Of a DNA stretch of 20,949 nucleotides, positions 1 to 20,949 are shown piece by piece; within the stretch, counting starts at the first letter, position 1, and each line of letters starts with the position of its first letter. This DNA is from Gemmatimonadota bacterium (GTDB lineage Bacteria; Gemmatimonadota; Gemmatimonadetes; Gemmatimonadales; GWC2-71-9). The notes beneath the pieces are model-generated. The model did no database searches. It saw only the letters and a list, made by a program, of their open reading frames with translations, and was not told the origin of the DNA. The stretch covers positions 1-20,949 of the forward strand of contig JBDHAB010000159.1 of the NCBI GenBank assembly GCA_039588295.1, in the 5' to 3' direction. A program made the translations under genes and the position numbers.

Positions 1-1
1 G

Positions 2-772
2 CTCGAGTTCGCGGAGCGGCACGGCATCGACGTCACGGCGACGAAGGAAAAACCCTTCAGCGAGGACGACAATCTGCTGCACCTCTCGCACGAGGCCGGT
101 ATTCTCGAGGATCCGCTGTACGAGGCTGGGGAGGAGGTGTACTCGAGAACGAATGCGCCGGAGCACGCTCCAAATATGCCGGCACGAATCGCGATCACGT
201 TCGCGGATGGCATTCCGGTCATGGTGAAGAACCTGGACGACGGGGTCACCAAGTCTCAACCGCTCGAGTTGTTCGAGTACTTGAACGAGCTTGGGAAACT
301 CCATGGGATCGGTCGTATGGATATGGTCGAGAACCGGTTTGTCGGGATCAAGTCACGTGGGATCTACGAGACGCCCGGCGGGACCATCCTGCATGTCGCG
401 CACATGGACATCGAGGGGATCGCGATGGACCGCGAGGTGATGCGGCTGCGGAACATGCTGACCGCCAAGCTTTCGGAACTGATCTACTACGGCTTCTGGT
501 TCAGTCCGGAGATGGATTTCCTGATGGCCGCCATCGACAAGAGCCAGGAGGTCATCGACGGAACCGTGCGTCTCAAGTTGTTCAAAGGCAACGTGATGGC
601 GGTTGGCCGCGAATGTTCGTCGTCCCTGTACGATCAGGAGCTCTCCAGCATGCACCTCGAAGGCGGCTACAAGCAGCAGGACGCCGAGGGGTTCATCAAG
701 ATCAACGCCATCCGGCTGATGGCGCACAGCGCCATCATGCATAAGAAACACAAGCACTGGGGGATCGAATGA
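2..772 (+). CDS. argG: Argininosuccinate synthase (5'-truncated by window edge)
   Basis: Frame is open from base 2 (LEFAERHGIDVTATKEKPFSEDDNLLHLSHEAGILEDP...). Contains the ArgG signature GRMDMVENRFVGIKSRGIYETPGGTIL. Its stop overlaps the argH start (ATGA). Confidence 0.97.
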   Translation, partial: LEFAERHGIDVTATKEKPFSEDDNLLHLSHEAGILEDPLYEAGEEVYSRTNAPEHAPNMPARIAITFADGIPVMVKNLDDGVTKSQPLELFEYLNELGKLHGIGRMDMVENRFVGIKSRGIYETPGGTILHVAHMDIEGIAMDREVMRLRNMLTAKLSELIYYGFWFSPEMDFLMAAIDKSQEVIDGTVRLKLFKGNVMAVGRECSSSLYDQELSSMHLEGGYKQQDAEGFIKINAIRLMAHSAIMHKKHKHWGIE

Positions 773-1959
773 TGACCCTCTGGGACAAAGGCGACCGCGT
801 GGACGAAGCCGTCCTGGCGTTCTCGGCGGGGAACGAATACATGCTCGACCAGCGGCTCGTGCCGTACGATTGCAGTGCGTCAATTGCGCATGTGACCATG
901 CTGGAGCAGATCGGCGCGCTGGACCCTGCCGAACGGGAGCAGCTCGTGGCGGGGCTCGAGCAGATCCGGCAAATGCATGGCGAGGGCGGATTCACGATCC
1001 AGCGGGAACAGGAAGACTGCCATACCGCGATCGAAGAATGGCTCACGGATCGCGTGGGCGAGGCGGGAAAGAAGATCCATCTCGGACGGTCACGCAACGA
1101 TCAAGTCCTCACAGCCCTGCGCCTGTACGAAAAGGAGGCCCTGGGACGTGTTCGCGAACTCCTCGGCCACTTCGAGCACACCGTGACCGCCCAGTCGGAG
1201 ACCCACGGTTCGGTGCCGATGCCGGGCTACACTCACATGCGCCGAGCGATGCCGACCACGGTGGGGACCTGGCTTGCCGCGTTCGCCGCGGCGGCGAGGG
1301 ACGACCGGCTCCTCCTCGACTCCATCCTGACACTGATCGATCAGTCGCCACTCGGAACCGGCGCCGGATACGGAGTCCCCGTCTTCGAACTCGACCGCAC
1401 GACGACCGCGGAAGCCATGGGATTCGCCAGCGTGCAGGAAAACCCGATCCATGCCCACATGAGCAGGGGGAAGTACGAGGGGATCATCCTCTCGGTCCTG
1501 ACCGAGATCATGTTCGACCTCAACCGTTTGGCGACCGATCTCCTGCTGTTCTCGATGACCGAGTTCGGATTCCTTCGGCTCCCGACACACCTGTGCACCG
1601 GCTCGTCGATCATGCCGCAGAAGAAGAACGCCGACGTCCTCGAGCTGGTGCGGGGTCAGTATCACGTCGTAGCAGCCGAGGAGTTCAAGGTGAAGAACCT
1701 CATCGGCAACTTGATGACCGGGTATCAGCGCGACCTCGGCCTCACCAAGGAACCCCTCTTCAGGGGGTTCGATACGACGCTGGCGTGCCTTCAGATCATG
1801 ACTCGCGCCGTCGGCGAGGTGGAGGTCGACGCCGAAGCCTGCAGGGCAGCGATGAGCGAGGATCTGTATGCAACCGAGGAAGCCTACAGACTGGTGAAGG
1901 ACGGCATGCCGTTTCGGGAGGCCTACCGACGGATCGGAAAGCAATACCGCGATTTGTAG
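769..1959 (+). CDS. argH: Argininosuccinate lyase
   Basis: Fumarase/ASL superfamily motifs HLGRSRNDQV, MPGYTHMRRAMP and TGSSIMPQKKNADVLEL; translationally coupled to argG. Confidence 0.96.
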   Translation: MMTLWDKGDRVDEAVLAFSAGNEYMLDQRLVPYDCSASIAHVTMLEQIGALDPAEREQLVAGLEQIRQMHGEGGFTIQREQEDCHTAIEEWLTDRVGEAGKKIHLGRSRNDQVLTALRLYEKEALGRVRELLGHFEHTVTAQSETHGSVPMPGYTHMRRAMPTTVGTWLAAFAAAARDDRLLLDSILTLIDQSPLGTGAGYGVPVFELDRTTTAEAMGFASVQENPIHAHMSRGKYEGIILSVLTEIMFDLNRLATDLLLFSMTEFGFLRLPTHLCTGSSIMPQKKNADVLELVRGQYHVVAAEEFKVKNLIGNLMTGYQRDLGLTKEPLFRGFDTTLACLQIMTRAVGEVEVDAEACRAAMSEDLYATEEAYRLVKDGMPFREAYRRIGKQYRDL

Positions 1960-8382: not shown

Positions 8383-9600
8383 TTACCCGGTCCGGTCGAG
8401 GCGCCCCTCGGCTTGTCGAGCGAACCGTCTCCAGGCGCGTCCGATCCAGAGGGCCAAGGGCCAGGCAATGAGACACAGGATCGCCCGATGCATGAGGCGC
8501 ACGGCGCGCCGCCATAGCATGCCGATCGGGGGACTCAGGCGCTCCACCGACCCGACGATACGGTAGGCAGACGGCCCGGTCGACGGTACCAGCAGTCGGG
8601 CCCACAGCGAGCGGCGCTCCTCGCGACCGGCCTGGATGGCGAACACCCACTGCACCAATTGGTGAACCTCGAGGAAGACGCGGCGTCGACCTGCCCGCCG
8701 CATGATCTCGTACATGGCGTACCGCGAGAATGCGACCGACTGGAAGGCATCCACCACCGGTGCTTCATTGGCAACGGCCTCGGCCATGTCGAAGTACAGG
8801 CCAAGCGGTTTGGCGAAGCGATCGGCGCGCGTGCGCCGGCGGATTTCGGCTCGCTCATCCAGCGAGCACGCTCCCAGCCCATCCGACAGCAGTACGACAT
8901 CACGCAGCCGGCCGCGTCGATTGAAGTGAGCCGCAGTGGCGTGGTAGCACAGGTACCAGGCATGTTCCACCGGTTCGAGTCCAAGCAGGCCAGGTGCCAC
9001 CGCAACAGCACGCTTCCACACATGGTCGGGGGTGGGAGTCCCATCCGCTTCAGTGGTGTGATGCACTTCGACAGGCATGGCGCCGTCAATGTACTGGGCG
9101 GCGGCGTGCCTGGTGGATGCGTACCGCCCCTCGCCTGCTGAGCGCGTACGGAGCCAGGCGATCACTGCCGGCATATCGCCTGCGGGCACGAGCATGTCGA
9201 GGTCGGCAAGACCCAGTACGAGGCTCGACCCGCGTGCCAGGGGCACGCCACCCTTCAACACGAGGACCCGCCACCCCCGTTCCGTTGCCGCCGTTCCAAT
9301 CTCGTCCAGCTGCGCACGAGCACGGAGCGCCCGCAGCGACTCGACGCGCCGGTGCTTAGCCAGCGGCTGTCGCACCTCCTCCGGCAGGTCTCGCAGGCGG
9401 TCGACCCGCTCCAGCCTCGCCGCCACAAGAGCGGCACAGCGCTCGGTGCGGAGGAACACGTCCCACGCCACCGGTGACGCCTCCACCGCCCTGGCCCACC
9501 GGGCTGCGTCGATTTCCTCCTGAGGCCCGAGGATGTCGATGGCGAGGGCGCGGACTGCCATCGCCTCGGCGGCCACTCGGATCGCTGTCAGCTCACCCAT
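8383..9600 (-). CDS. Nucleotidyltransferase family protein (NTP_transf_5-like)
   Basis: VLVLKGG...LADLDMLV (LKG plus DxD), VEVHH and RLRDVVLL motifs. Start placed at ATG 9600 (MGELTA), overlapping the upstream gene by 13 nt. Confidence 0.85.
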   Translation of the reverse strand: MGELTAIRVAAEAMAVRALAIDILGPQEEIDAARWARAVEASPVAWDVFLRTERCAALVAARLERVDRLRDLPEEVRQPLAKHRRVESLRALRARAQLDEIGTAATERGWRVLVLKGGVPLARGSSLVLGLADLDMLVPAGDMPAVIAWLRTRSAGEGRYASTRHAAAQYIDGAMPVEVHHTTEADGTPTPDHVWKRAVAVAPGLLGLEPVEHAWYLCYHATAAHFNRRGRLRDVVLLSDGLGACSLDERAEIRRRTRADRFAKPLGLYFDMAEAVANEAPVVDAFQSVAFSRYAMYEIMRRAGRRRVFLEVHQLVQWVFAIQAGREERRSLWARLLVPSTGPSAYRIVGSVERLSPPIGMLWRRAVRLMHRAILCLIAWPLALWIGRAWRRFARQAEGRLDRTG

Positions 9601-10109
9601 CGAACCGGACTCACTCGGCCGCGCAGCGAGATCCGCACCAGCGCAGCAGCAAGGCGGGGATGCAGTGCGAGCGCCAGACGCACGACCGTCCGCCAGAGGG
9701 AACTTCGCCAGGTCACCGCCCGAGCCAACGGCGAACGAGGCGGTACCGCGCGCCACTCCTCGTCCTGGTGCCGCGCCGTCACCGGCCCGAGTATCAGTTC
9801 GATGGGGACCGGCGGATCACAGAGCACCAGGCCGTCTCCCTGGGTCAGAACGAAGCGACGGTTCCAGGGCATGGAACCGCGCGCCGCGAGGCGGTGTGCG
9901 ACGAGGCCTCCCGGCGTTACGATCGCGACCGTGGTCCCGACTGACGGCAGAGCCGTCCGTGGCTCGATCCGAATTCGCGCGCCGCTGAGGATCGCAGGCT
10001 CCATGCTCGCCCCATCAATGACCGACTCGATCTCGCGACCGCTGCGGCGCAACAGGTCGATCCGGGCGCGGAGCTGTTGAGGCGGGACGTAGATGTCGTC
10101 GGTGGACAT
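9588..10109 (-). CDS. S24/S26 family peptidase
   Basis: GASMEP (catalytic Ser box), VAHRL (His general base) and TQGD, as in Ser/His-type signal peptidases; no N-terminal membrane anchor. Alternative GTG start at 10112. Confidence 0.82.
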   Translation of the reverse strand: MSTDDIYVPPQQLRARIDLLRRSGREIESVIDGASMEPAILSGARIRIEPRTALPSVGTTVAIVTPGGLVAHRLAARGSMPWNRRFVLTQGDGLVLCDPPVPIELILGPVTARHQDEEWRAVPPRSPLARAVTWRSSLWRTVVRLALALHPRLAAALVRISLRGRVSPVRWVS

Positions 10110-10122
10110 CACATCCCGAGCG

Positions 10123-11193
10123 TCACGCCGCGCGGATGTGCGACGCAGGCATCAGGTACGGGCCGACGGTCTGGCGCACATGGGGATTACGGAACGCCCA
10201 TACGAGGCCGTCGATGTAGAAGTGAATGAGCGCGAGCGAATTCCACGCGATGATGTAGGCCATCGGAGCCCCCAGCAGGGCTGTCGTTCGCTCACCGAGG
10301 AAGATCAGCAGTCCGACCCCAATGACCGTGGCTACAACGGTTCGCGGGTTGGCGCTCATGCGCGCGAGCAGGCGCTGAGGAGCGGAGCCGGCGGCGGACA
10401 CGTACTTCCGGTGGTTGAGCAGCCACACGATTGCCAGGTACTGGATGAAGTGCCCGATCAACATGCCGAGCGTGGCGAGCCCCGCATCCTCGACCCAGAG
10501 GTAGGGATGGAACAGGAGCAGACTGGTTGCCAAGAACGCGCCTTCGGGTACGCTGAGCGCGTGCGACCGCCGGAGCAAGCGATATGCTAGCAGCCCGACT
10601 GAGGCGACGGCGATGGGCAACGTGATGGCCGGCAGTACCCACGGTAGGACTGGGTGCACCGAGCTGAGCACGCCATACAATGGCGCAAATCGATCTGCGT
10701 GCCAGAAGGCCATCGTCGCGTTAACCGACAGGATGGCCACACGCGCCACCGATCGCTCGGCAGGTGGCCCGTTGTTCAGACGTCGGTAGATCGAGAGGAT
10801 ACCATGACTCTGTTGGCTGACGTGAAAGATGTTCCACACGAACATCGTCACCATGACGGGAGTGTGCGCTCCAGAACCCCGTAGCAGAAGCACCGACGTC
10901 GCGATCACGACCGGTCCGCCGTAGAAGAGCGCGAGGTGCCGCCGGTAGTACTGTCGGTTGTCGTCACCGAAGAAGAAGCTGAACGACGACATGTAATGGG
11001 GAATGGCGAGCAGAAAGGTGACGGCCGCCACCATCACCGTTCCTCCGGGCAACGTCAGCGCCCAGAGGACGGCAAGCGTCCCGATCAGCGGCGACAGAAT
11101 GAACAACCCCAGATCGAACGGGGGAGACTGAATCCAGCCGCGCGCCGCCGTCACACCCACTGCTGGCCCATGGGACGCCGCGACTGTCGTCAT
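10123..11193 (-). CDS. Multi-pass membrane protein with four His motifs, putative membrane metallo-oxidase
   Basis: Roughly 9-10 hydrophobic segments; IPHYMSSF, WNIFHVSQQSHG, GHFIQYL and IHFYIDGLVW motifs; CAGGA RBS. The CDS is clear but the function is inferred. Confidence 0.7.
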   Translation of the reverse strand: MTTVAASHGPAVGVTAARGWIQSPPFDLGLFILSPLIGTLAVLWALTLPGGTVMVAAVTFLLAIPHYMSSFSFFFGDDNRQYYRRHLALFYGGPVVIATSVLLLRGSGAHTPVMVTMFVWNIFHVSQQSHGILSIYRRLNNGPPAERSVARVAILSVNATMAFWHADRFAPLYGVLSSVHPVLPWVLPAITLPIAVASVGLLAYRLLRRSHALSVPEGAFLATSLLLFHPYLWVEDAGLATLGMLIGHFIQYLAIVWLLNHRKYVSAAGSAPQRLLARMSANPRTVVATVIGVGLLIFLGERTTALLGAPMAYIIAWNSLALIHFYIDGLVWAFRNPHVRQTVGPYLMPASHIRAA

Positions 11194-11221: not shown

Positions 11222-11989
11222 TCAGGATGCGGCCTGCCGCTGGAGAATAGCCCGCCGCCGCTCCTCGTTCTTTTCGTGTGTGCGCTCGGCCGCGGTTTGC
11301 GGGAAGCCCGCCTCGATCCGTTCCTCGACCGCCATCGGGTACTTCGTCACCTCACCGCCGCCGCGCGCCGTCACCCATGCCAACCCCTTGAGCGCGTTTG
11401 ACACCGCCCGAATAACCTGCATCACCACACCGGGGTCCAGGGCCACCTGCTTGTGGATCCATTGGTTGGCGTATTTGACGTGCAGTACTTCGTCCGCCTG
11501 CTGGATCTCGTACATGGCGACCACCTCATCGTCGCCCGCCGCCTTCGCGTCCCGAATCGCCTGCGTGACCGCATCCAGGCCGTCCGCTTCGAACGTCCGG
11601 TTCTCCACCGCAAACCGACCCGGCAGGTTGTCGATGCGCCCGAGGATCTTGTACTGGAAGTTCATGATCGGATAGCGACCGATCTTCCCACCGCGCCTCT
11701 CATACAGGCGCTTGTACGCGGCGGTGTGGCGGGCCTCGTCCGCCGCTTGCCGCGCAATGCCCTTGCGAATCCCCCACTCCACGTCGGGAAACTCAACCAG
11801 GTTGCGGGCACAGTTCTCGAGGACATTCAGCTCCTCGTTCATCTGCCGATGATAGAACTCGATCTCATGCTCGGGATCGTCCTCCGGCAGGTTGACGCAG
11901 TCCGCCCACTGGTCGACGACCGTGAAGCGGTCGTCGCGGGCCGGGCCGTCGCCGAACAAGGCGGGGTCGGGTACGCTAGCGCTCGCCAT
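11222..11989 (-). CDS. DUF455-like ferritin-like diiron protein (paralogue B)
   Basis: Full diiron ligand pattern NEE..., DEARH, FEA, DEVLH and C-terminal ERIEAGF motif. Alternative GTG start at 11992. Confidence 0.85.
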   Translation of the reverse strand: MASASVPDPALFGDGPARDDRFTVVDQWADCVNLPEDDPEHEIEFYHRQMNEELNVLENCARNLVEFPDVEWGIRKGIARQAADEARHTAAYKRLYERRGGKIGRYPIMNFQYKILGRIDNLPGRFAVENRTFEADGLDAVTQAIRDAKAAGDDEVVAMYEIQQADEVLHVKYANQWIHKQVALDPGVVMQVIRAVSNALKGLAWVTARGGGEVTKYPMAVEERIEAGFPQTAAERTHEKNEERRRAILQRQAAS

Positions 11990-12782
11990 CACGCTTCCCC
12001 CGGCCCGGCAAGATCGACTGAAATCCGGCCTTCTTCAGCACCTCCATGACCTCTTCCTCGGTGAAGTCGGCCTCGAGCCGACCCTCGACGTTGATCTCGA
12101 CCTGAAGTTTGTGCTCCTGTACCTTGGTTCCCGCAGCGTCGACCGCATCTTCGTCCACCTGCATGGCCCCGTTGGCCTCGGCGAGGAACCGGACGGCCTT
12201 CGCCACTTGCAGGAGAACCATCGGGTTCTCTTCAGTCATACGGCGAATCCACTGATTCGCGAACCGGACGTGTGTGATTTCGTCGGCGAGAATGCCGTCG
12301 AGCACATCGGCCGTCGTGTTATCCCCGACCTTGCGCCACACCTTGCGCAACGTGCCCAAGATGTCGATCAAGCCCGCTTCGAACGTCCGGTTCTGAATGG
12401 CGAGGCGTCCGGGCAGATTGTCGATCATCAGGGTCACACCCCACTCGAAGTTGGCAACGGGAAACTCACCCTTGTCACCCCCCATCTGCCGGAGCCGCCG
12501 CAAGAGCACCTCGGAGTGCCTGGATTCGTCGGCGCACTGTCGAGCGAGACGCATCCGCAAGTCCCACGGCGCGTCGGGGTAGTCCGCCAAACACTGGGCC
12601 GCAATCTCGACGGCACCCGTCTCGTTGTTCATGTGCCGATGGAGTTTTTCGCGTCCCGCCTCCCCCTCCACCCCCGGCCAGTTCTTCATATCGATGTCGT
12701 GATGGACGACATCGAAACACGCTTCCCGGGCCGGGTCCTTTCGGAGCGTTACGCCGCGGGCGACTTTCGTTTCCTGGGACAT
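11976..12782 (-). CDS. DUF455-like ferritin-like diiron protein (paralogue A)
   Basis: NNE..., DESRH, FEA, DEITH and INVEGRLEADF; shares IDNLPGRxAxxNRTFEA and ANQWI with paralogue B. Confidence 0.85.
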   Translation of the reverse strand: MSQETKVARGVTLRKDPAREACFDVVHHDIDMKNWPGVEGEAGREKLHRHMNNETGAVEIAAQCLADYPDAPWDLRMRLARQCADESRHSEVLLRRLRQMGGDKGEFPVANFEWGVTLMIDNLPGRLAIQNRTFEAGLIDILGTLRKVWRKVGDNTTADVLDGILADEITHVRFANQWIRRMTEENPMVLLQVAKAVRFLAEANGAMQVDEDAVDAAGTKVQEHKLQVEINVEGRLEADFTEEEVMEVLKKAGFQSILPGRGKRDGER

Positions 12783-12791
12783 GGCGTTCCC

Positions 12792-13331
12792 CTATCGCTC
12801 GCGATAGTCGACGAAGTCCGACACCCCGGTCATTGCCGCACGCAGAGCATCGAGCCAGTCGGCCCGACCAGCGGGCAGCTCGGGCCGCTCACGCCGCATG
12901 GCATCCCGTTCACTCTGCATGCGATCGATGTCGGTCAGCACCCGCTCGAGAATGCGCACCGACGGCTCATCGACCATCGTGTCCGTCTGGTCGAGGTAGC
13001 TTCGGTAGCGGGACACCAGGTCGGGCAACGCGACGTCATAAAAGCCGTCGATGCGGTCACCGGTCTCGCTCGTCGAGGCAAGCGTCCGCAGGGCCTGAAG
13101 GTAGGGCACGACCGGCTCCCGCGTGAAGTGCATCGCGGCGCGCAACTCGTGCGTGCGCCGACCAAACTGATCGGCGTGCTGGGCGAACTCCCAAATGTGC
13201 CGCCCCATGAGAATCTTGACTTCCAGTTCCGGGGTGGTCGGGACCCACCGTGCCAACGTCTCCATCAGGAAGACCGACATGTGTCGGAATGTCGCGACCC
13301 AATCCGCCCGTTCCTTAACCAGCGTAATCAT
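12792..13331 (-). CDS. Short ferritin-like four-helix protein with degenerate metal ligands
   Basis: PELEVKILMGRHIWEFAQHADQFGRRTHEL aligns by eye with PWDLRMRLARQCADESRHSEVLLRRLRQM of paralogue A; second ExxH is absent; ATGA overlap with the kinase stop. Confidence 0.65.
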   Translation of the reverse strand: MITLVKERADWVATFRHMSVFLMETLARWVPTTPELEVKILMGRHIWEFAQHADQFGRRTHELRAAMHFTREPVVPYLQALRTLASTSETGDRIDGFYDVALPDLVSRYRSYLDQTDTMVDEPSVRILERVLTDIDRMQSERDAMRRERPELPAGRADWLDALRAAMTGVSDFVDYRER

Positions 13332-14386
13332 GTTCCCCCAAAGCTACGTTCGATGAGTGTAATGGTCTCCTGCGGGGTACCCGCGGTCAACCGGTGCCAC
13401 TGAACGGCGGACGCGAGCTTGAAGAGGCGCAGCATCTTGAGTCCCGACGCCGCTGAAACGGGCGTTGATTTCACTGGTGCCACGTACCGCACGTTCGTCG
13501 AGTCGGCCGCGAGGGCCGTCAGGCTCGGTTCGTCAGCCAGTCCATCGAGAATCACAATGTGCTCCAGCGGCACCGGCTCGCCGAGCGGAGCAGTATTGAG
13601 AGCGTCGGCGGCGACCAGCGTCTTTGTACTCCCATCGGCGAAGCGCTCGACCGGAAGGCCGGGAGCCTCGAGCAGCGGTTCCGCCGCGCTGTCGAGCGGG
13701 CCCGGCCGGACGCCTGCGGCTCTCGGAAAGGGCAGGAGCGACGGGCCGTCGAGTCGGATGGCCCCCACCTCGTCACTCAGGAACCCGTGACCTCGGGCCG
13801 CGAGCCCAACCGACAGGGTGGTCTTGCCCGCTTCTCGAGCGCCGACGAGGAGGACACCAGTTCCCCCGAGCTCGACGGCCGCTGCATGCACGAACAGCAC
13901 ATCGGGCTGGACGCACATGGCACGATGGACCAGAACGGCACCCGCGACATAGGGCCACGGGGCGTCGGGCGCGACGACAAGGTCTGAGCCCCGCACCGCC
14001 ATCTGCCACCGGGGATCGGCCGTGGACGCCAATCCGACCCAGTCGCCCTCGCCCCCCACGCGGCGAACTCCGTCATCGGCAAAGATCGCCTCGGTGAACC
14101 CTGCGGGGTCGGACAGCGGCTCCCCGTCGGCGGAGAGCAACACGCCGGTTCTCCCCGGATCGACCGTTACCGTTGCCTCGACTGTTGGCAGACCCGCTTG
14201 CGGTGCCTCCACGGTGCACCCACCGAATAGCACAGCGAAGCGGTCCAAAAACGAGCCGTCACCGGTCCGTATTGACACAAACGCGTCGCCGAATCGATAC
14301 CAGCATCTGTCTCGAGGAACCGGCATAACAGCAAGGCGGGCGGCCAGCGAATCCGCTGCCGCCCACCATGCAACATCGCCACCCAC
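13328..14386 (-). CDS. HprK-related Ser/Thr kinase (RiPP-associated)
   Basis: HAAAV, Walker A GAREAGKTT, LSDEV and LLPFPR motifs. GTG start at 14386 is uncertain. Confidence 0.85.
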   Translation of the reverse strand: MGGDVAWWAAADSLAARLAVMPVPRDRCWYRFGDAFVSIRTGDGSFLDRFAVLFGGCTVEAPQAGLPTVEATVTVDPGRTGVLLSADGEPLSDPAGFTEAIFADDGVRRVGGEGDWVGLASTADPRWQMAVRGSDLVVAPDAPWPYVAGAVLVHRAMCVQPDVLFVHAAAVELGGTGVLLVGAREAGKTTLSVGLAARGHGFLSDEVGAIRLDGPSLLPFPRAAGVRPGPLDSAAEPLLEAPGLPVERFADGSTKTLVAADALNTAPLGEPVPLEHIVILDGLADEPSLTALAADSTNVRYVAPVKSTPVSAASGLKMLRLFKLASAVQWHRLTAGTPQETITLIERSFGGT

Positions 14387-14550: not shown

Positions 14551-14820
14551 TTAGGTCTTGTCGACAATCGAAAGCTGCACCAGCTCCTCCACCGCCGCCT
14601 GGACATCCGCCTGTGCCTGGTCGAATTCGACTCCATCGTACGCTTCGGAAATGTCCGTCGCGAGTTCGGCCACGGAGCGTGGCTGCTCGAGACGTTCCCA
14701 CATGAACGCCGCCGTCCCGTCCAGGCGGCAGAACTTCTTCGTATCCTTATGGTAGAGCAGCGTTTCGCCCTCCATTGGCGCCTGTTCGATGCCCTGGGCT
14801 CGCTGATAGACCGCGCTCAT
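14551..14820 (-). CDS. PqqD-family stand-alone RiPP recognition element (RRE)
   Basis: About 89 aa; ETLLYH...FCRLDGTAAFMWERLEQPRSVAELATDISEAYDGVEFDQAQADV...EELVQLSIV matches the three-strand/three-helix PqqD pattern; AAGGA 9 nt before ATG 14820 (alternative start 14829). Confidence 0.93.
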   Translation of the reverse strand: MSAVYQRAQGIEQAPMEGETLLYHKDTKKFCRLDGTAAFMWERLEQPRSVAELATDISEAYDGVEFDQAQADVQAAVEELVQLSIVDKT

Positions 14821-14829
14821 CGCATTCAT

Positions 14830-14919
14830 TCCTTAACGGTGGATTGCATAATCTCTATAGATTTAGTCGATTTTTCAAGGTGAGCCGACCCACATTCAAT
14901 TGTCCGGGAGCGGGCTGAC
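14830..14919. promoter_or_regulatory. AT-rich divergent promoter region between the RRE operon and the Asn-synthetase-like gene
   Basis: Markedly AT-rich tract (14843-14878) between divergent starts; TTGAAA on the minus strand (14878-14873); inverted repeat AATCT-CTAT-AGATT at 14850-14863. Confidence 0.55.
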
Positions 14920-16809
14920 ATGGCAGGTCTGGCCCTCGCCGTCGGCGTCGATGACGCGAATGTCGCTGGGCTGCTCGCGCGCCTCGACCGCGCGCAGGCG
15001 CACCGGGGACCCAGTGGGCACTGGCTCCTCTCGTCTGGTGCGACTGCGAACCCCTTGACCGGGCCGCTTACCGTCCAGCCGCATTCCACCGAATGGGCCC
15101 CGACCGTCGGCGCTGCCTTCCGCGGTCCGGGCGCCGACCGACGGGACCCACCCAGTCGGATCTGGGCAGCGGTCGATGGGTTCCTCACGAACCGCGCCGC
15201 CCTCGCCGACCAGCTCGATGTGCCGCCCGACGCCGAGACTTCGGCTGTCGTCGCGCGAGCGTACGAGCGCTGGGGACCGGCGTGCGTCGAGCGGCTCGAG
15301 GGCCAGTGGGCCCTGATCGTGTGCGACCTCGAGCAGGACCGGTCCTTCGCAGCCCGGGACCACCTCGGCATCGGACAGCTGTATTACTCTGCTGACGGGA
15401 ATCACGTTCTGGTGGCGTCCGAGCCGAAAGCCGTCGCGCGCGCCCAACCCGCGGGACCGGAGATCGAGCCGGTCCGGTTCGGGGAGTTCCTGAACGGCTT
15501 CCCTCCCACCACACCGGAGTTGTCGTTCTTCCGCGGCGTGCAGTCGATTGCCGCGGGGGCGATGCTGCGCATCGAGCGCGCCACGGAAGGCGCCCCGCGC
15601 GTCCAGATCGACCGGTATTGGGACCCTCGGGCACTGCGGGGGTGGACCATGTCCCCACCGCCGTTCACCGACGCGGCGCGGCGATTCGAGACGCTGCTGG
15701 TCACCGCCGTGAGGCGTCGGGGGACGCCGGGCGAGACGGGCGCCCTGCTCTCGGGAGGACTCGACTCCTCCGTGCTCGCGGTAATCGCCGCTGAGTTCGC
15801 AGGCACTCGACCGCTGCCGAGCTTCTCGATCTTGCACGCGGATCCCGACCTCACGGAGGAGCGTCATGTGAATGCGGTGGTGGCACACGCAGGTCTCAAG
15901 AGTCACACGGCGACGATCCGACCCGCGGACGCGTGGCAGGCTGTCGACGCGGTCGTGACGGTCCAGGGGGAACCGTTACTCGGTCAGGACCTCATCGGTC
16001 AGTGGCACGCCTACCGACTCGCGGCAGAGCACGGGACGCGTTCGGTGTTCGACGGTATCGGCGCAGATGAACTGCTGGCCGGCGTGGGCACAGAGAGCCG
16101 CTACTTTCGCGACCTCCTGTTGGACGGAGAGTGGCAGGAGTTCGCGCGCGAGGTGCGGGCGTTCGGAACGCGACATGAGGTATCCCCAGTGCGCACGCTC
16201 CGCCGGTATGTAGCGGGCCCCCTCAAGCGCGAGCTGTCATGGGCGCTCCGCCCACGGCGATACCGATGGCTCTCCCGCGATCTGCCACCCGATCCATACC
16301 GCGATCGTCTCCGCACGGACGTGGCCCCAGACCATTCTCTGCTGAACGGATATCTCTACCGGCATGTCCGGCACCAGAATGCGCCGACCGTCTTGGGTCG
16401 CCTCGACCGGTGCGCGGCCGCGCACGGGCTACGGTCGCTCGTCCCGTATCTCGATCGCAGCGTGGTGGAGTGGTGTCTACCGCTCCCAGGACGCTACAAG
16501 GTGTTCCGCGGACAACCGAAGCGTTTGCTCCATTCCGTCGCTCGCCGTCACCTGCCGGCCGAGGTTGCCGACCGGAGGGACAAGCAGGGCATCGTGCCAA
16601 CGAAACCCTGGATGGCAGTCCGCACCGAGTTCGCCGAGGCGTTTCGCGCGGTGCCGCACGAGCGTCGGGTGCGCGAGTCCGGTTGGATCGACCCACGAGC
16701 GGCGGAGCGCTTCATCGAGGGCTACCTCGCGGAGCGCCACACCGACCACCTCGGCGTGTGGCGGCTGTTCACGGCCTGGCGGTGGCTCGAGCTGTTTCGA
16801 CTGTCGTAA
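14920..16809 (+). CDS. Asparagine synthetase-like protein with inactive-looking glutaminase domain (lasso cyclase-like/ATP-dependent amide ligase)
   Basis: PP-loop LLSGGLDSS, DGIGADELLAG, VPYLD and RRDKQG are intact. N-terminus is MAGLAL (no Cys1) and VDGFLTN replaces xNGEIYN. Confidence 0.88.
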   Translation: MAGLALAVGVDDANVAGLLARLDRAQAHRGPSGHWLLSSGATANPLTGPLTVQPHSTEWAPTVGAAFRGPGADRRDPPSRIWAAVDGFLTNRAALADQLDVPPDAETSAVVARAYERWGPACVERLEGQWALIVCDLEQDRSFAARDHLGIGQLYYSADGNHVLVASEPKAVARAQPAGPEIEPVRFGEFLNGFPPTTPELSFFRGVQSIAAGAMLRIERATEGAPRVQIDRYWDPRALRGWTMSPPPFTDAARRFETLLVTAVRRRGTPGETGALLSGGLDSSVLAVIAAEFAGTRPLPSFSILHADPDLTEERHVNAVVAHAGLKSHTATIRPADAWQAVDAVVTVQGEPLLGQDLIGQWHAYRLAAEHGTRSVFDGIGADELLAGVGTESRYFRDLLLDGEWQEFAREVRAFGTRHEVSPVRTLRRYVAGPLKRELSWALRPRRYRWLSRDLPPDPYRDRLRTDVAPDHSLLNGYLYRHVRHQNAPTVLGRLDRCAAAHGLRSLVPYLDRSVVEWCLPLPGRYKVFRGQPKRLLHSVARRHLPAEVADRRDKQGIVPTKPWMAVRTEFAEAFRAVPHERRVRESGWIDPRAAERFIEGYLAERHTDHLGVWRLFTAWRWLELFRLS

Positions 16810-16815
16810 GTGCCG

Positions 16816-18747
16816 TCAGAGAGCGACGGTTACTCCGAGCGCCTCCCGCCAGAGATCGAACCCCACCAGCCGCCACACGATGAACAGGTCACGCTGCGAA
16901 AGCGGCGCGCCGCTCCGTATCGCATCGAGCCGCTGACGCACCCACGCCGGCGAGATCCCGGGTATCGCCGCCACGCGCTCGAACCGCCGAGCCACATCCG
17001 ACACCGCGCAGGCCCAGGTATGGAGTGGGACGGACAGGCCGATCTTGGCGCGACGGTCAGAGACGGCAGCGGGAAGGAGATCGTGGACGGCGCGACGGAA
17101 CACGTACTTGCCCTCCCCATGCGGACCCACGAGGTGCTCCTCTGGGAGGGCCAGGCAGAACTCGACGAGCTCCGGCAGCAGGAACGGCAGCCGACCTTCG
17201 ATCGACGCAGCCATCGTGTTGCGATCCTCCCAGCGCAGGATGGCTGGCAGGCTGGCGGCGAGGTACCGGCGCACCAGCGCGCTGAGGCTCAGCGGCCGAT
17301 CCAGATCGGCGGCTGCATTGCGAACCATGTCGGACTCGACCGTCAGCCACGGCCAACGCCGCAGCGGTCGGCGTTGTCGCGCCAGCACCCGCGCCGTCTT
17401 GAACAATGTGCCCGCCGCCTGCCTGCCGCGGCGCTTGCTGCCACGCACCAGGGCCGCAACGAGTCGCCCGGCAGTGACGAAGTCTCCGCGACGCAGGAGG
17501 CCCGCAACCCGGAGTGGCACTGCCGCCGGATACCCGGCCAACAGTTCGTCAGCACCCTGTCCGTCGAGCAACACCTTCACGCCGGTGTCACGCGCGTGCT
17601 GGCAGAGCGCATGGTGCACCAGAATGGCGGGACTGCCCATTGGCTCGCCCTGTCGCTTCGCAGCGGCCACGGCCCCGGACCACAGGTCGGCATCCAGGCG
17701 CAGCTTGGACGTTCGACACCCGGCGGCGGCTGACACCAGATCGATCCACGGCTCTTCGCTCTTCGCCTCTCCCGTGCCGATGTAGCTGACGGCGCGCAGC
17801 TCGAGGTCGGCACCGCCGATTTGCCGTTGGGCGAGCACGAGTGCAGAGGAATCCAATCCACCCGAGAGGAGCGAGCCGATGGGCACGTCGCTCCGCAGGT
17901 GCCAGCTCACCGACCGATCGAAGAGGTGGCGCAGCCGGCTCGCCGCCTCGTCCGGCTCCGCTGTCGACTGGGGCCGCCGAACCGGCGGGACCGACCAGTA
18001 CCGTCTCACGTCCCACTCGAGCGACGTCGGGTCGTCGATCTCGATGACCGTTCCGGGGTCGAGCCGTCTCACCCCCTCGATCATCGTGTCCGCGCGATGA
18101 TCCGTTCGCCCGGTCGCCAGGTAGTCCACTGTTGGGTGTAAGGCAGCCCGCACGGCCGTGGGGTGGATTCGGAGAACTGCGGGGATTTCCGAGGCGAAGG
18201 CCAGGCCTCCCACTACGGGGCGCAAAAAAAGCGGTTTCTGCCCCAGGTGATCGCGCGCGAACACCACCGTCCGGCGTTCACGATCGACAATCACGAAGGC
18301 GAACATCCCGGCAAGTCGCTCGAGACACCCGAGACCCCAGCGCTCGTACGCGGCGAGCAGCACCTCGGTATCCGAGCGTCCGCGGAACCCGTATCCCTCG
18401 CGCTCCAGTTCCTGTCTCAGCTCGACGTGATTGTAGATCTCCCCGTTGTAGGCGAGCCAGATCCGCTGGTCGGCAGACGGCATCGGCTGGGCGCCGGCTG
18501 GACCGAGGTCGAGGATGGCGAGCCGCCGGTGCGCGATGACGACCGAGAATTCGAGATCGTCGTCCGCGGCTGGGACGTCGGTGCGCTGTGACGCGGTCTC
18601 GAGATAGCCTAGCCCATCATTGGCGGCCAGGACGAGGAGTGCCTCGTCATCCGGACCACGATGGTGCAGCATGTGGCCGGCAGCACGTACTCCGTCGAGC
18701 ACGGCTTCGGGATGTCCGACGCCGATCCAGCCCGCAATGCCGCACAT
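16816..18747 (-). CDS. asnB: Asparagine synthase (glutamine-hydrolysing) family amidotransferase
   Basis: MCGIAG Ntn start at ATG 18747; HRGPD, HRRLAILDL, AQPM, YNGEIYNH, SDTEVLL, LSGGLDSS, DGQGADELLAGY and EDRNTMAASIEGRLPFL. Family is certain, substrate is not. Confidence 0.9.
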   Translation of the reverse strand: MCGIAGWIGVGHPEAVLDGVRAAGHMLHHRGPDDEALLVLAANDGLGYLETASQRTDVPAADDDLEFSVVIAHRRLAILDLGPAGAQPMPSADQRIWLAYNGEIYNHVELRQELEREGYGFRGRSDTEVLLAAYERWGLGCLERLAGMFAFVIVDRERRTVVFARDHLGQKPLFLRPVVGGLAFASEIPAVLRIHPTAVRAALHPTVDYLATGRTDHRADTMIEGVRRLDPGTVIEIDDPTSLEWDVRRYWSVPPVRRPQSTAEPDEAASRLRHLFDRSVSWHLRSDVPIGSLLSGGLDSSALVLAQRQIGGADLELRAVSYIGTGEAKSEEPWIDLVSAAAGCRTSKLRLDADLWSGAVAAAKRQGEPMGSPAILVHHALCQHARDTGVKVLLDGQGADELLAGYPAAVPLRVAGLLRRGDFVTAGRLVAALVRGSKRRGRQAAGTLFKTARVLARQRRPLRRWPWLTVESDMVRNAAADLDRPLSLSALVRRYLAASLPAILRWEDRNTMAASIEGRLPFLLPELVEFCLALPEEHLVGPHGEGKYVFRRAVHDLLPAAVSDRRAKIGLSVPLHTWACAVSDVARRFERVAAIPGISPAWVRQRLDAIRSGAPLSQRDLFIVWRLVGFDLWREALGVTVAL

Positions 18748-18833: not shown

Positions 18834-19034
18834 ATGACTACCATCCATCCCGACCGTCCGCCAGCCGACTGGATCGACCAGATGAGCGACGAGCAGTGTA
18901 TGGAGATCTTCTGGCTCTACGTCGATCCGCCGGAGCCGTTTCTCGAAGGGCACCCTCCTGCGCTCCTCGGCCGGGCGATGCGATACGCCCTGCACCAGGT
19001 GGCGGACGAGACCGCGCGGCGCCAAGAGAAGTAA
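18834..19034 (+). CDS. Small hypothetical protein (66 aa)
   Basis: MTTIHPDRPPADWIDQMSDEQCMEIFWLYVDPPEPFLEGHPPALLGRAMRYALHQVADETARRQEK fills the gap between asnB and the ppk2 terminator; protein-like composition, weak RBS. Confidence 0.55.
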   Translation: MTTIHPDRPPADWIDQMSDEQCMEIFWLYVDPPEPFLEGHPPALLGRAMRYALHQVADETARRQEK

Positions 19035-19120: not shown

Positions 19121-20023
19121 TCACTCCTTCTCGAGCGTCTTCTTCAGCTTGGCCAGTTCCTTCCGCGCGGCCGCGTTCACCGTGGGGAACTTGAGGTCCA
19201 ACGATGTGAGCGCGTCGACGATCGCCGCTGCGACGACGACACGGGTAAACCACTTCTTGTCGGCCGGCACCACATACCACGGCGCTTGCTCGGTCGCCGT
19301 GTTCCGGATCATGTCTTCGTACGCCTCCATGTACTGATCCCAATGCTCGCGCTCGGCGACGTCTCCGGCGGAGAACTTCCAGTTCTTTTCCGATCGGTCG
19401 ATGCGGTCGAGGAAGCGTTCCTTCTGTTCGTTCTTTGACACGTGCAAAAAGAACTTGCGAATCGCCACCCCGTTGCGCGTGAGGTGACGCTCGAGGTTCC
19501 GGATATCCTCGAACCGCTCCGACCAGATCTCGTCGGTCACCAGCTCGGGTGGCAGTTTCTGGCCCGCGAGGATTCCGGGATGGACACGCACGACAAGCGT
19601 CTCTTCGTAGTAGGAGCGATTGAAGATCCCGATACGTCCGCGCTCCGGAAGGCGCTTGACACAGCGCCACAGATAGTCGTGGTCCAGCTCCTCTTTGCTC
19701 GGCGCCTTGAACGAGAACACCTGACAGCCCTGCGGGTTGACGCCGGACATGACGTGCTTGATCGCGCTGTCCTTACCGGCGGCGTCCATCGCCTGAAAGA
19801 CCAGCAGCACCGCCCACTTGTCCTGCGCGTAGAGCATCTCCTGCAGCTCCGCCATCGCCTTGACGCCTGCCTTCAGAGCCTTCTTGGCCTGTGGCTTGTC
19901 CTCGGATCCGAGGTCACCCGTGTCGCCGGGGTCAAAATCGGCGAGTCGGAACGCGTCACCGTCGGTGACGCGGTAGGGTTCGGAGAGACGCTGGGCCTTG
20001 CTGGCGAATTTCTCGGACCTCAT
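19121..20023 (-). CDS. ppk2: Polyphosphate kinase 2 family protein (single domain, class III-like)
   Basis: QAMDAAGKDS (Walker A), VNPQG, FKAPSKEELDHDYLWR, FNRSYYEE and APWYVVPADKKW; AGGAG RBS before ATG 20023. Confidence 0.95.
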   Translation of the reverse strand: MRSEKFASKAQRLSEPYRVTDGDAFRLADFDPGDTGDLGSEDKPQAKKALKAGVKAMAELQEMLYAQDKWAVLLVFQAMDAAGKDSAIKHVMSGVNPQGCQVFSFKAPSKEELDHDYLWRCVKRLPERGRIGIFNRSYYEETLVVRVHPGILAGQKLPPELVTDEIWSERFEDIRNLERHLTRNGVAIRKFFLHVSKNEQKERFLDRIDRSEKNWKFSAGDVAEREHWDQYMEAYEDMIRNTATEQAPWYVVPADKKWFTRVVVAAAIVDALTSLDLKFPTVNAAARKELAKLKKTLEKE

Positions 20024-20031
20024 GACCGCTC

Positions 20032-20949
20032 CTACGGCGTCCCGCGCCACGCCGAGTAGTCCACATCCAGCGGCGGCGGAGCGGCATTCCGTTGATCACC
20101 TGGTTGGAGATAGTGGTCAAACCAGCGGAGCGCCCGCAGCGCATAATCGTACCGATAGACGTTCGTCCGATTGCCGTGGCCCTCACCCGGATACCGGACG
20201 TACCGCACGGGTGTCTCCGTGCTGGTCTTGACCGCCCGATAGAGCATATGCGGTTGGCTCGGGTGGACGCGGGGATCGTTCGTCCCGCCCAGGACGAGAA
20301 GGGGGGTCCGGCACTGCGGTGCGTACGTCAACGGGCTGCGCTCGCTCAAGAAGTCCCACTGCTCGTGAGGCCACCGCTCCTCGTAGTGCACGTAGTAGTA
20401 CTCCCAGGGGATGTCGGTGGTGAGCCACTTCGTGGGCACGTGGGTAACCGGCACAAAACTCACGGATGCGGCAAAGTGCTCCGAGTGACGAGTGGCGGCC
20501 CACGCTGCGGTGTAGCCGCCATACGACCCGCCGCCGATCCCGACGCGAGCACGATCGACCCACCCACGCTCGACGAAGTGCGCGATGGCATCCAGATGGT
20601 CCTCGAACTCACGGCCCATCGGATCTCCATGGTCCGCCTTTGCGAATTCGACCCCGCGCCCCGTGCTCGACCGATAGTTGGGGAACCACACGAAGTAACC
20701 GCCGCGACTCAGGAGCTGACCCCAGCCGCTGTACGTGGTCACCCACTGGTTTCGGTAGTGGCTCTCGGGTCCCCCGTGCGCCACGATCACCAGCGGGTAG
20801 CGGCGGCCCTGCTCGAAGTCCAACGGAGCCAGCAGAATCCCCTCGATCTCCACACCATCGCCGGCTGGGAAGCGATAGACCTCCTGCCGACCCAGGGGAA
20901 TCTCGTCGAGCCATGGATTCGAATTCGTCCGACGAGTCCACGAGCCACC
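20032..20949 (-). CDS. S9 family (prolyl oligopeptidase/acylaminoacyl peptidase-like) serine peptidase, 5'-truncated
   Basis: HGGPES, PNYRSSTGRG, GGSYGG (nucleophile), DPRV and EGHG; the frame stays open to the window end (..TNSNPWLDEIPLGRQEVYRF..). Confidence 0.93.
   Translation of the reverse strand, partial: GGSWTRRTNSNPWLDEIPLGRQEVYRFPAGDGVEIEGILLAPLDFEQGRRYPLVIVAHGGPESHYRNQWVTTYSGWGQLLSRGGYFVWFPNYRSSTGRGVEFAKADHGDPMGREFEDHLDAIAHFVERGWVDRARVGIGGGSYGGYTAAWAATRHSEHFAASVSFVPVTHVPTKWLTTDIPWEYYYVHYEERWPHEQWDFLSERSPLTYAPQCRTPLLVLGGTNDPRVHPSQPHMLYRAVKTSTETPVRYVRYPGEGHGNRTNVYRYDYALRALRWFDHYLQPGDQRNAAPPPLDVDYSAWRGTP

What the first reader, a model, noticed from the sequence alone, without database searches (positions are those of the whole stretch)
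14920..16809. Glutaminase-dead Asn-synthetase homologue divergent from the RRE: candidate macrocyclase or amide ligase
Seen: MAGLAL replaces MCGIAG and VDGFLTN replaces YNGEIYN, while the adenylation motifs (SGGLDSS, GADELLAG) are intact; it shares the 90-100 nt intergenic region with the RRE operon. Established: Ntn glutaminases need Cys1 and the NG oxyanion motif; lasso cyclases and beta-lactam synthetases are AsnB homologues that lost them and use a substrate amine. Inference: it adenylates the peptide C-terminus and joins it to Gly1 or another amine.
Basis: partly seen in the sequence, partly recalled or inferred. Interest (0 to 1): 0.72.

Follow-up and report, generated by a model that had tools for sequence, protein, structure and literature searches.

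The report
Glutaminase-less tailoring enzyme, Trp-Trp peptide cluster
This gene encodes an asparagine-synthetase relative that has lost its ammonia-making half but kept its ATP site, sits beside an intact twin in an uncharacterised Trp-Trp peptide gene cluster, and likely joins an acid group to an amine on the peptide product, an optional step in one lineage rather than the ring-closing step that defines the family.

Summary
In detail: no Cys1, DG in place of NG, ATP motifs intact, 90 or 99 nt from the RRE gene. The gene belongs to a conserved operon: RRE, Trp-Trp precursor, kinase, three ferritin-like proteins and a signal-peptidase-like protease. It is not of lasso-cyclase descent (193 bits against a cut-off of 525). 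It nests inside a Cys1-intact amidotransferase clade whose members occupy the same position in related clusters.

The Cys-less orthologue was found in 4 of 26 cluster-bearing genomes examined, always beside an intact paralogue. A second, independent Cys-less copy in another genome also lies beside an intact one. The synthetase half is under purifying selection (dN/dS about 0.07-0.25) and shows lasso-cyclase-like substitutions. However, the catalytic Lys is Asn in 4 of 16 orthologues, and none of 23 precursor cores has Asp, Glu or Lys.

Best reading (0.40): an accessory ATP-dependent ligase that uses a substrate amine. Head-to-tail closure of GMSGWWMM is only one form of this (about 0.15-0.2). 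Rivals: non-catalytic partner of the intact twin (0.25), free-ammonia amidation (0.13), amide-to-nitrile step (0.12). No activity was tested.

The parts
14920..16809 (+). Cys-less AsnB homologue (the finding), 629 aa: degenerate Ntn domain plus intact ATP-pyrophosphatase synthetase domain
   Evidence: Pfam Asn_synthase 184 bits, GATase_7 64 bits; AF2 mean pLDDT 91.3; Foldseek top hits TsnB9, ASNS, beta-lactam synthetase; motifs
16816..18747 (-). Cys1-intact AsnB-type amidotransferase, convergent with the finding
   Evidence: MCGIAG, NGEIYN; TIGR01536 359 bits, above cut-off 267; beside the Cys-less gene in 6 of 6 loci of that clade
14830..14919 (.). 90-nt divergent intergenic region
   Evidence: no sigma-70 consensus promoter found in 14700-15050; little sequence conservation among 5 loci
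14551..14829 (-). PqqD-family RRE (stand-alone peptide chaperone)
   Evidence: PF05402 56 bits
14403..14537 (-). Precursor peptide: YxxP leader, conserved FQI-T-x-A, Trp-Trp core without Asp/Glu/Lys
   Evidence: 23 homologous precursors listed; alignment of 12 with invariant Y, P, F, Q, T, A, W, W
13328..14386 (-). HPr-kinase-like ATPase (start uncertain)
   Evidence: PF07475 and TIGR04352 matches below their cut-offs; present in the cluster loci
12792..13331 (-). 179-aa ferritin-like helical protein with no ExxH motif, likely non-metal partner subunit
   Evidence: AF2 pLDDT 93.4; Foldseek best rows are ferritin-like monooxygenase subunits, none at E<=0.001; no ExxH
11976..12782 (-). DUF455 ferritin-like protein A
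   Evidence: PF04305 92 bits; three ExxH; about 90% identical within the genus
11222..11992 (-). DUF455 ferritin-like protein B
   Evidence: PF04305 75 bits; ExxH motifs
10123..11193 (-). Hydrophobic, His-containing predicted membrane protein, no family match
   Evidence: no Pfam or NCBIfam hit; present in part of the related clusters
9588..10112 (-). S26/SipW-like Ser-His peptidase, candidate leader peptidase
   Evidence: 13 of 15 aligned orthologues match TIGR02228 at E<=0.1, best 6.7e-10; the window's own copy does not; invariant GxSM, HR, GD
8383..9756 (-). NTP_transf_5 nucleotidyltransferase (start uncertain)
   Evidence: PF14907 66 bits
18834..19034 (+). 66-aa protein of no known family that travels with the cluster
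   Evidence: found in 14 of 34 cluster loci and once in the genome; no Pfam hit

Best explanation
The protein is an asparagine-synthetase homologue that has lost its glutaminase and keeps an intact ATP site, and it likely acts as an accessory amide ligase that activates a carboxylate of the oxidised Trp-Trp peptide product as an acyl-AMP and would join it to an amine already on the substrate instead of to ammonia. Shown: loss of the glutaminase and domain-interface residues, retention of the ATP/PPi residues, descent from a Cys1-intact cluster enzyme, restriction to one lineage, and an intact paralogue next door. Inferred: the S26-like protease frees a new N-terminal amine (GMSGWWMM if it cuts after T-T-A). 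Most relatives carry a formyltransferase that could cap such an amine; this lineage has lost it and lengthened the core by one residue, which would leave the amine free for this enzyme. Not known: which carboxylate (C-terminus, or one made by the di-iron enzymes) and which amine. Head-to-tail closure of GMSGWWMM is one form of this reading, about 0.15-0.2 on its own.
For: S278, G279, G280, D282, D383, E384 and K534 are invariant in all 17 Cys-less sequences, including deeply diverged P0250 and P0260. dN/dS is 0.07-0.25 in the synthetase segments against 0.53-0.66 in aa 1-80; whole-gene values 0.20-0.28 match the intact paralogue's 0.20-0.23 (dS above 1, so rough). Two true lasso cyclases (over cut-off) show the same kinds of change: D for N, aliphatic I/L at position 380, DR-x-x-A for DR-x-x-M, no Glu at 505, no Tyr at 389. 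Position 380 aligns with human Glu-364, whose A and Q variants are inactive with ammonium (PMC6748925, passages). The cluster formyltransferase is in 17 of 22 other cluster genomes but in 0 of 4 with this gene. The 5 precursors from this lineage have 7 residues between FQI and WW; the 18 others have 6 (one evolutionary event, not five). Glutaminase-less AsnB relatives characterised so far use a substrate amine (recalled).
Against: The Lys matching human Lys-466, described as essential in E. coli AS-B (PMC6748925, passage), is Asn in 4 of 16 orthologues, and that subclade is still conserved (dN/dS 0.10-0.12). The Tyr whose loss kills PesC (PMC13060819) is absent in 17 of 17. The cores have one carboxylate and an intact AsnB sits beside the gene in every case, so two enzymes would compete for it. 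The independent Cys-less copy in G343 sits in a cluster that keeps the formyltransferase, so the co-loss is not general. The shared changes with lasso cyclases may only reflect decay of an unused ammonia tunnel. No binding or activity data exist.
Confidence: 0.4

Rival explanations
1. Non-catalytic, or ATP-binding-only, partner: the Cys-less protein would bind the peptide or the intact AsnB and help the intact enzyme amidate the product.
For: K555 is Asn in the G004/G005 subclade, whose synthetase half is still under purifying selection (dN/dS 0.10-0.12, against 0.94 for aa 1-80). P0260 also lacks D496-R497. Tyr389 is lost in 17 of 17. An intact AsnB lies beside it in 6 of 6 loci, and beside the independent G343 copy. 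The same operon already holds a degenerate ferritin-like partner.
Against: The PP loop, D383, E384 and K534 never vary in 17 Cys-less sequences. Position 555 is also not Lys in 18 of 178 NG-intact relatives (12 Arg; 6 other, some of them alignment slips), so it is not a strict requirement in this subfamily. Two-AsnB clusters predate the loss (G399, G585, G757 have both copies intact), so the pairing may simply be inherited.
Confidence: 0.25
2. Ammonia-dependent amidotransferase: it would still make a primary amide like its ancestors, using free ammonia (possibly released by the neighbour's glutaminase).
For: Direct descent from Cys1-intact amidotransferases in the same gene position. AS-like enzymes, including PesC, accept ammonia in place of glutamine (PMC13060819). 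RiPP-associated AS-like enzymes TsrC and ScdTA amidate C-termini (same paper).
Against: It has lost Gln380 (Glu-364 equivalent, needed for ammonium-dependent activity in human ASNS; PMC6748925) and Tyr389 (needed in PesC), both kept in most NG-intact relatives (161 and 151 of 178). An intact amidotransferase next door would make the same job redundant.
Confidence: 0.13
3. Second, nitrogen-free step of a split pathway: the intact AsnB would make a C-terminal amide, and this protein would adenylate the amide and eliminate AMP to give a nitrile (or a related cyclodehydration).
For: PesC performs amidation and then an ATP-dependent amide-to-nitrile step that needs no new nitrogen (PMC13060819). 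This would explain one carboxylate with two AsnBs, repeated loss of glutaminase in only one copy, and no Cys-less copy seen as the sole AsnB of a cluster.
Against: No similarity to PesC was tested (its sequence was not fetched). C-terminal tails vary widely across 23 precursors, whereas the pes precursors share a fixed C-terminal motif. The Glu-Tyr dyad is half lost. The pairing may be inherited.
Confidence: 0.12
4. Not a peptide-modifying enzyme at all: a neighbour acting on another substrate, such as a cell-surface polymer or small molecule.
For: It lies on the opposite strand from the operon. 6 of 26 cluster genomes show no AsnB in the stretches fetched (two stretches end at contig ends). 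AsnB homologues are common in polysaccharide loci, including C16 of this genome.
Against: Its subfamily sits at this operon in two phyla, co-transcribed with cluster tailoring genes (G399, G585, G757, L112). It scores 162 against a cut-off of 817 on the XrtA amidotransferase model and falls outside that clade.
Confidence: 0.07

Closest known systems
Lasso peptide cyclases (NF033535; e.g. McjC)
   Same: AsnB fold without Cys1; D in place of the oxyanion Asn; aliphatic residue at position 380; RRE, YxxP leader, HPr-like kinase and NTP_transf_5 nearby as in paeninodin/pseudomycoidin clusters (PMC8498205 passages).
   Different: 193 bits against a cut-off of 525, lower than its own intact neighbour (212); separate place in the tree; no Asp/Glu in any of 23 cores; S26-like rather than transglutaminase-like peptidase; present in only 4 of 26 clusters.
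Beta-lactam synthetase / CarA
   Same: Same two-domain fold (Foldseek E 1e-23); glutaminase-less; ATP motifs kept.
   Different: 18-19% identity in the structural match; the beta-lactam synthetase locus fetched has Tyr at position 380 where this protein has Ile; no CEA-synthase context.
RiPP-tailoring AS-like amidotransferases: PesC (nitrile), TsrC/ScdTA (C-terminal amide), FzmA (hydrazide), Amm20 (putative amide)
   Same: AS-like enzymes in peptide clusters that activate or are proposed to activate a carboxylate (PMC13060819, PMC13622209, PMC12715798).
   Different: PesC and FzmA take nitrogen from glutamine or a glutamyl donor; this protein lacks Cys1, NG and the Tyr of the Glu-Tyr dyad. Those sequences were not fetched or aligned.
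TsnB9 hydroxyamidotransferase (PDB 7YLZ) and AsnB/ASNS
   Same: Best sequence and structure matches in the PDB.
   Different: About 20% identity; both keep an N-terminal Cys.

Membership tests
Lasso peptide cyclase | NF033535 score above curated cut-off (525) | tested here: not met
   192.9 bits; orthologue P0005 182.7
Lasso peptide cyclase | Groups with lasso cyclases in a tree | tested here: not met
   Nested in a Cys1-intact clade, apart from L114/L115
Lasso peptide cyclase | Precursor core with Asp/Glu at position 7-9 | tested here: not met
   No Asp, Glu or Lys after the FQx motif in 23 of 23 precursors
Lasso peptide cyclase | Transglutaminase-like B/B2 leader peptidase in the cluster | tested here: not met
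   The cluster peptidase is S24/S26-like; the genome's two PF13471 matches are on other contigs, the better one beside a radical-SAM-like gene
Lasso peptide cyclase | Glutaminase lost; RRE and YxxP leader present | tested here: met
Lasso peptide cyclase | ATP-dependent macrolactam formation | not testable with these tools
   needs an assay
Glutamine-dependent AsnB amidotransferase (TIGR01536) | N-terminal Cys and NG oxyanion motif | tested here: not met
   Ala and DG; 215.8 bits against 267.1
Glutamine-dependent AsnB amidotransferase (TIGR01536) | SGGxDS PP loop, GxDE, two Lys of the synthetase site | tested here: met
   All present in the window's protein; the second Lys is missing in 4 of 16 orthologues
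Beta-lactam synthetase / CarA | Tyr at the Glu348-equivalent position and CEA-pathway context | tested here: not met
   Ile here against Tyr in L118; different neighbourhood. That this Tyr is catalytic is recalled
PesC-type nitrile synthetase | Glu-Tyr dyad (DExxxxY) | tested here: not met
   Glu kept in 17 of 17, Tyr in 0 of 17; mapping inferred from the spacing given in PMC13060819
PesC-type nitrile synthetase | Amide-to-nitrile conversion | not testable with these tools
   needs an assay
XrtA/PEP-CTERM polysaccharide amidotransferase (TIGR03108) | Model score above 816.9 and grouping with that clade | tested here: not met
   161.8 bits; separate from P0063 group

The most novel reading that the evidence does not exclude
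A fresh origin of amine-ligating chemistry in the AsnB family, caught beside its still-intact ancestors: in one lineage the formyl cap was dropped and this enzyme closes an Asp/Glu-free Trp-Trp core head to tail. Alternatively, it and its intact twin split amide and nitrile formation between two enzymes. Either would be a new maturation step in an undescribed peptide class.
Probability: 0.25. Interest if true: 0.8.

Novelty: new variant of a known kind. Interest (0 to 1): 0.5.

Why it matters
Lasso cyclases and beta-lactam synthetases lost their glutaminase long ago, so the transition cannot be watched. Here the Cys-less enzyme, its Cys1-intact orthologues in the same gene position, intermediate forms (P0250, P0260) and an independent loss are all available, with a genetically encoded short substrate. 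That makes the switch away from glutamine directly testable. A macrocyclase for Asp/Glu-free cores, or a stand-alone peptide nitrile-forming enzyme, would be a useful biocatalyst. If it is a pseudo-enzyme partner, the interest is modest. The larger prize is the host pathway (DUF455 trio plus Trp-Trp peptide). I found no paper on it in three searches, though earlier AI notes of this scan had already flagged it.

Tried and rejected
The metagenome scan also hit its limit and gave 4 loci. Counts are therefore lower bounds.
2. Complex prediction of this protein with the precursor was not available; nothing was folded, so binding is untested.
3. No RNA holder was listed; this is no evidence on expression.
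4. My first view that the lasso Thr(-2) rule puts the core start at Ala, not Gly, was dropped: the peptidase is S26-like, and a cut after T-x-A gives Gly. The cut site remains unknown.
5. A missed upstream Cys start was rejected. A decaying pseudogene was rejected.
6. The plasmid search found nothing above 60% identity and served only to supply a beta-lactam synthetase outgroup.
7. Paper searches with no hits. One search gave two unrelated papers. A lasso review cited in PMC13622209 was not held. Supplements of PMC13060819, which hold the active-site alignment, were not read and could correct my mapping of Tyr368 to position 389.
8. Word and place look-ups of earlier findings returned nothing.

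Full report
OBSERVATION. The ORF at 14920-16809 (+) encodes 629 aa with Pfam Asn_synthase and weakened GATase domains. It begins MAGLAL, has VDGFLTN at aa 85, SGGLDSS at aa 278 and GADELLAG at aa 381, has no Cys before aa 122 or in the 12 open upstream codons, and lies 90 or 99 nt from the divergent RRE gene. An AlphaFold2 model (mean pLDDT 91.3) matches TsnB9, human ASNS, beta-lactam synthetase, AsnB and CarA.

THE HOST CLUSTER. On the minus strand lie a PqqD-type RRE, a 44-aa precursor, an HPr-kinase-like protein, a 179-aa ferritin-like protein without ExxH, two DUF455 proteins with ExxH motifs, a membrane protein, an S26-like peptidase and an NTP_transf_5 protein. The DUF455 gene was found in 16 of 401 genomes of the window's phylum and 5 of 401 of a second phylum. 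Source labels on homologues name Gemmatimonadota, and two named loci are Acidobacteriota. With genomes reached, I examined 26 genomes holding the operon; G005 shows only RRE, precursor and kinase on a short contig. Twenty-three precursors share a YxxP leader, FQx-T-x-A and Trp-Trp. None has Asp, Glu or Lys after FQx, and their C-terminal tails vary (precursors of a few loci were not recovered by the pattern). Three earlier AI notes describe this same DUF455 trio; I reached it independently before reading them, and they are not support.

DISTRIBUTION. Twenty of the 26 genomes have at least one AsnB in the stretches fetched; G009, G103, G193, G408, G417 and G734 do not (G009 and G193 end at contig ends; for the five checked genome-wide the best matches lie on other contigs). 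The Cys-less orthologue occurs in 4 of 26 (G000, G004, G005, G008, one genus), and a search of 401 family genomes at E<=1e-130 added only two genomes, both with Cys1-intact copies. So it is an accessory, lineage-restricted gene. In all 6 loci of this clade (4 genomes plus L110, L111) an intact AsnB is adjacent. G399 and G585 show the likely ancestral layout: RRE, then divergently a fatty-acid-hydroxylase-family gene, a Cys1-intact orthologue, a formyltransferase, an unknown gene and an HTTM gene, then a convergent second intact AsnB (the G585 layout spans two contigs). In the window's genus those four genes are missing from the locus, and only weak (27-30%) formyltransferase matches exist elsewhere in its genomes. 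The formyltransferase is present in 17 of the 22 other genomes.

PHYLOGENY. In FastTree trees of 88 and 103 sequences the Cys-less clade (support 1.0) nests within a clade of Cys1-intact proteins (support 0.997-1.0), far from two lasso cyclases that pass the family cut-off and from a beta-lactam synthetase (its ORF carried a mis-called N-terminal extension and a long branch). Sequences under 560 aa were left out. Placement within the intact clade is weakly supported, and no formal clade test was run. P0250 and P0260 (MAGL starts, DG) join the Cys-less clade at 0.998, so the loss is older than the genus. P0272 falls elsewhere on a long branch and may be a separate loss. G343 carries an independent Cys-less copy that belongs to the clade of the window's intact AsnB and lies in tandem with an intact paralogue. 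On the lasso model the finding scores 193 against 525, below its intact neighbour's 212.

WHAT IS KEPT AND LOST. Among 196 aligned sequences (198 less 2 duplicates), 17 have D at position 86, 178 have N and 1 is unaligned. S278, G279, G280, D282, D383, E384 and K534 are invariant in both groups. Lost in the D group are M500 (0 of 17 against 178 of 178), E505 (0 against 178), R507 (3 against 178), Q380 (0 against 161) and Y389 (0 against 151). By the alignment, E505 and R507 match human Glu-414 and Arg-416 at the domain interface near the glutaminase site, and position 380 matches Glu-364, whose variants are inactive with ammonium (PMC6748925 and PMC11615228, passages read). Position 389 likely matches PesC Tyr368, whose mutation abolishes activity (PMC13060819, text parts 1-3 of 7 read; mapping inferred from spacing). 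The lasso cyclases show parallel changes. K555, matching Lys-466 described as essential in AS-B (PMC6748925), is present in the window's protein but is Asn in 4 of 16 close orthologues. It is also not Lys in 18 of 178 NG-intact relatives. Selection: whole-gene dN/dS 0.20-0.28 against 0.20-0.23 for the intact paralogue; aa 1-80 0.53-0.66; synthetase segments 0.07-0.25. Between the two Asn-bearing genomes, aa 1-80 give 0.94 and the synthetase segments 0.10-0.12. dS exceeds 1, so these are rough.

MECHANISM. Shown: glutaminase gone, ATP site kept, gene maintained by selection, tied to the cluster, paired with an intact twin. Inferred: it still adenylates a carboxylate. I favour attack by a substrate amine (0.40). 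The characterised glutaminase-less relatives work that way (recalled), the residues tied to ammonia-dependent amidation are gone, and the same lineage lost the formyltransferase and gained one core residue (7 residues between FQI and WW in 5 precursors, 6 in 18; one event). The peptidase resembles SipW-type signal peptidases (13 of 15 orthologues match TIGR02228 at E<=0.1), and the third residue after FQx is Ala in 21 of 23 precursors. Gly follows in 13 of 23 precursors, so it does not mark this clade. Against head-to-tail closure: the core's single carboxylate would be contested by the intact AsnB. In G649 a flavoprotein gene (PF02441) sits beside a Cys-ending precursor and an intact AsnB; if it decarboxylates the C-terminus (recalled for LanD-like enzymes), these AsnBs act on some other carboxylate. 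Rivals are a non-catalytic partner (0.25), free-ammonia amidation (0.13), a nitrogen-free amide-to-nitrile step as in the second half of the PesC reaction (0.12), and an unrelated substrate (0.07).

COMPARISON AND NOVELTY. It may work like a lasso cyclase or beta-lactam synthetase but belongs to neither family, and it fails the AsnB and XrtA models too. AS-like enzymes are established peptide-tailoring enzymes: PesC, TsrC, ScdTA (PMC13060819), FzmA (PMC13622209, passages) and Amm20 (PMC12715798, passage, putative). The PesC paper notes about 300 uncharacterised RiPP-associated members. Kinase plus nucleotidyltransferase tailoring is known from lasso clusters (PMC8498205, passages; PMC5067487, passages, for the lasso ring and McjC). 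I found no paper describing this cluster or a Cys-less/intact AsnB pair in searches, which cover only the open library. Verdict: real, maintained, a new variant of a known kind, mechanism open; interest 0.5.

Noticed in passing
window 18834-19034 (+): A 66-aa protein with no Pfam match occurs in 14 of 34 cluster loci (59-85% identity), often beside an AsnB gene, and once in this genome; likely an overlooked member of the pathway.
   Followed up: partly
L101:18051-19814 (G343): Independent Cys-less AsnB (DGEILN, GGGADE, no Tyr, no Glu505) in tandem with an intact paralogue, in a cluster with three AsnBs.
   Followed up: partly
L130:12906-14879 (G757) and P0265: AsnBs that keep Cys1 and NG but have Ser at the catalytic Lys position, the mirror-image defect; G757 has a second AsnB with the Lys intact.
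   Followed up: no
L015:5168-5758 (G649): Flavoprotein (PF02441) gene directly before the RRE, with a precursor ending in Cys; a LanD-like decarboxylation is possible (recalled).
   Followed up: partly
L095-L109, L127-L135: Variable tailoring set around the operon: formyltransferase, one or two fatty-acid-hydroxylase-family genes, HTTM protein with a 200-aa partner, Asp/Asn beta-hydroxylase, epimerase, GDSL-like protein.
   Followed up: partly
P0250 and P0134: The basal Cys-less AsnB and a 73%-identical DUF455 protein both have a longest contig of 10461 bases from the same source, a hint that P0250 also lies in such a cluster; not verified.
   Followed up: no
L132 (G734) and L109 (G408): DUF455 matches with an internal TGA stop; these clusters may be decaying or mis-assembled.
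   Followed up: no
G000 C2:176761-178208 and C35:26833-27879: An orphan lasso-B2-like gene beside a radical-SAM-like gene, and a second NTP_transf_5 homologue, elsewhere in the genome.
   Followed up: no
window 1-1959 and 19121-20050: Flanking genes read like argininosuccinate synthase and lyase and a polyphosphate-kinase-2-type protein (recalled from motifs, not searched); they appear unrelated to the cluster.
   Followed up: no
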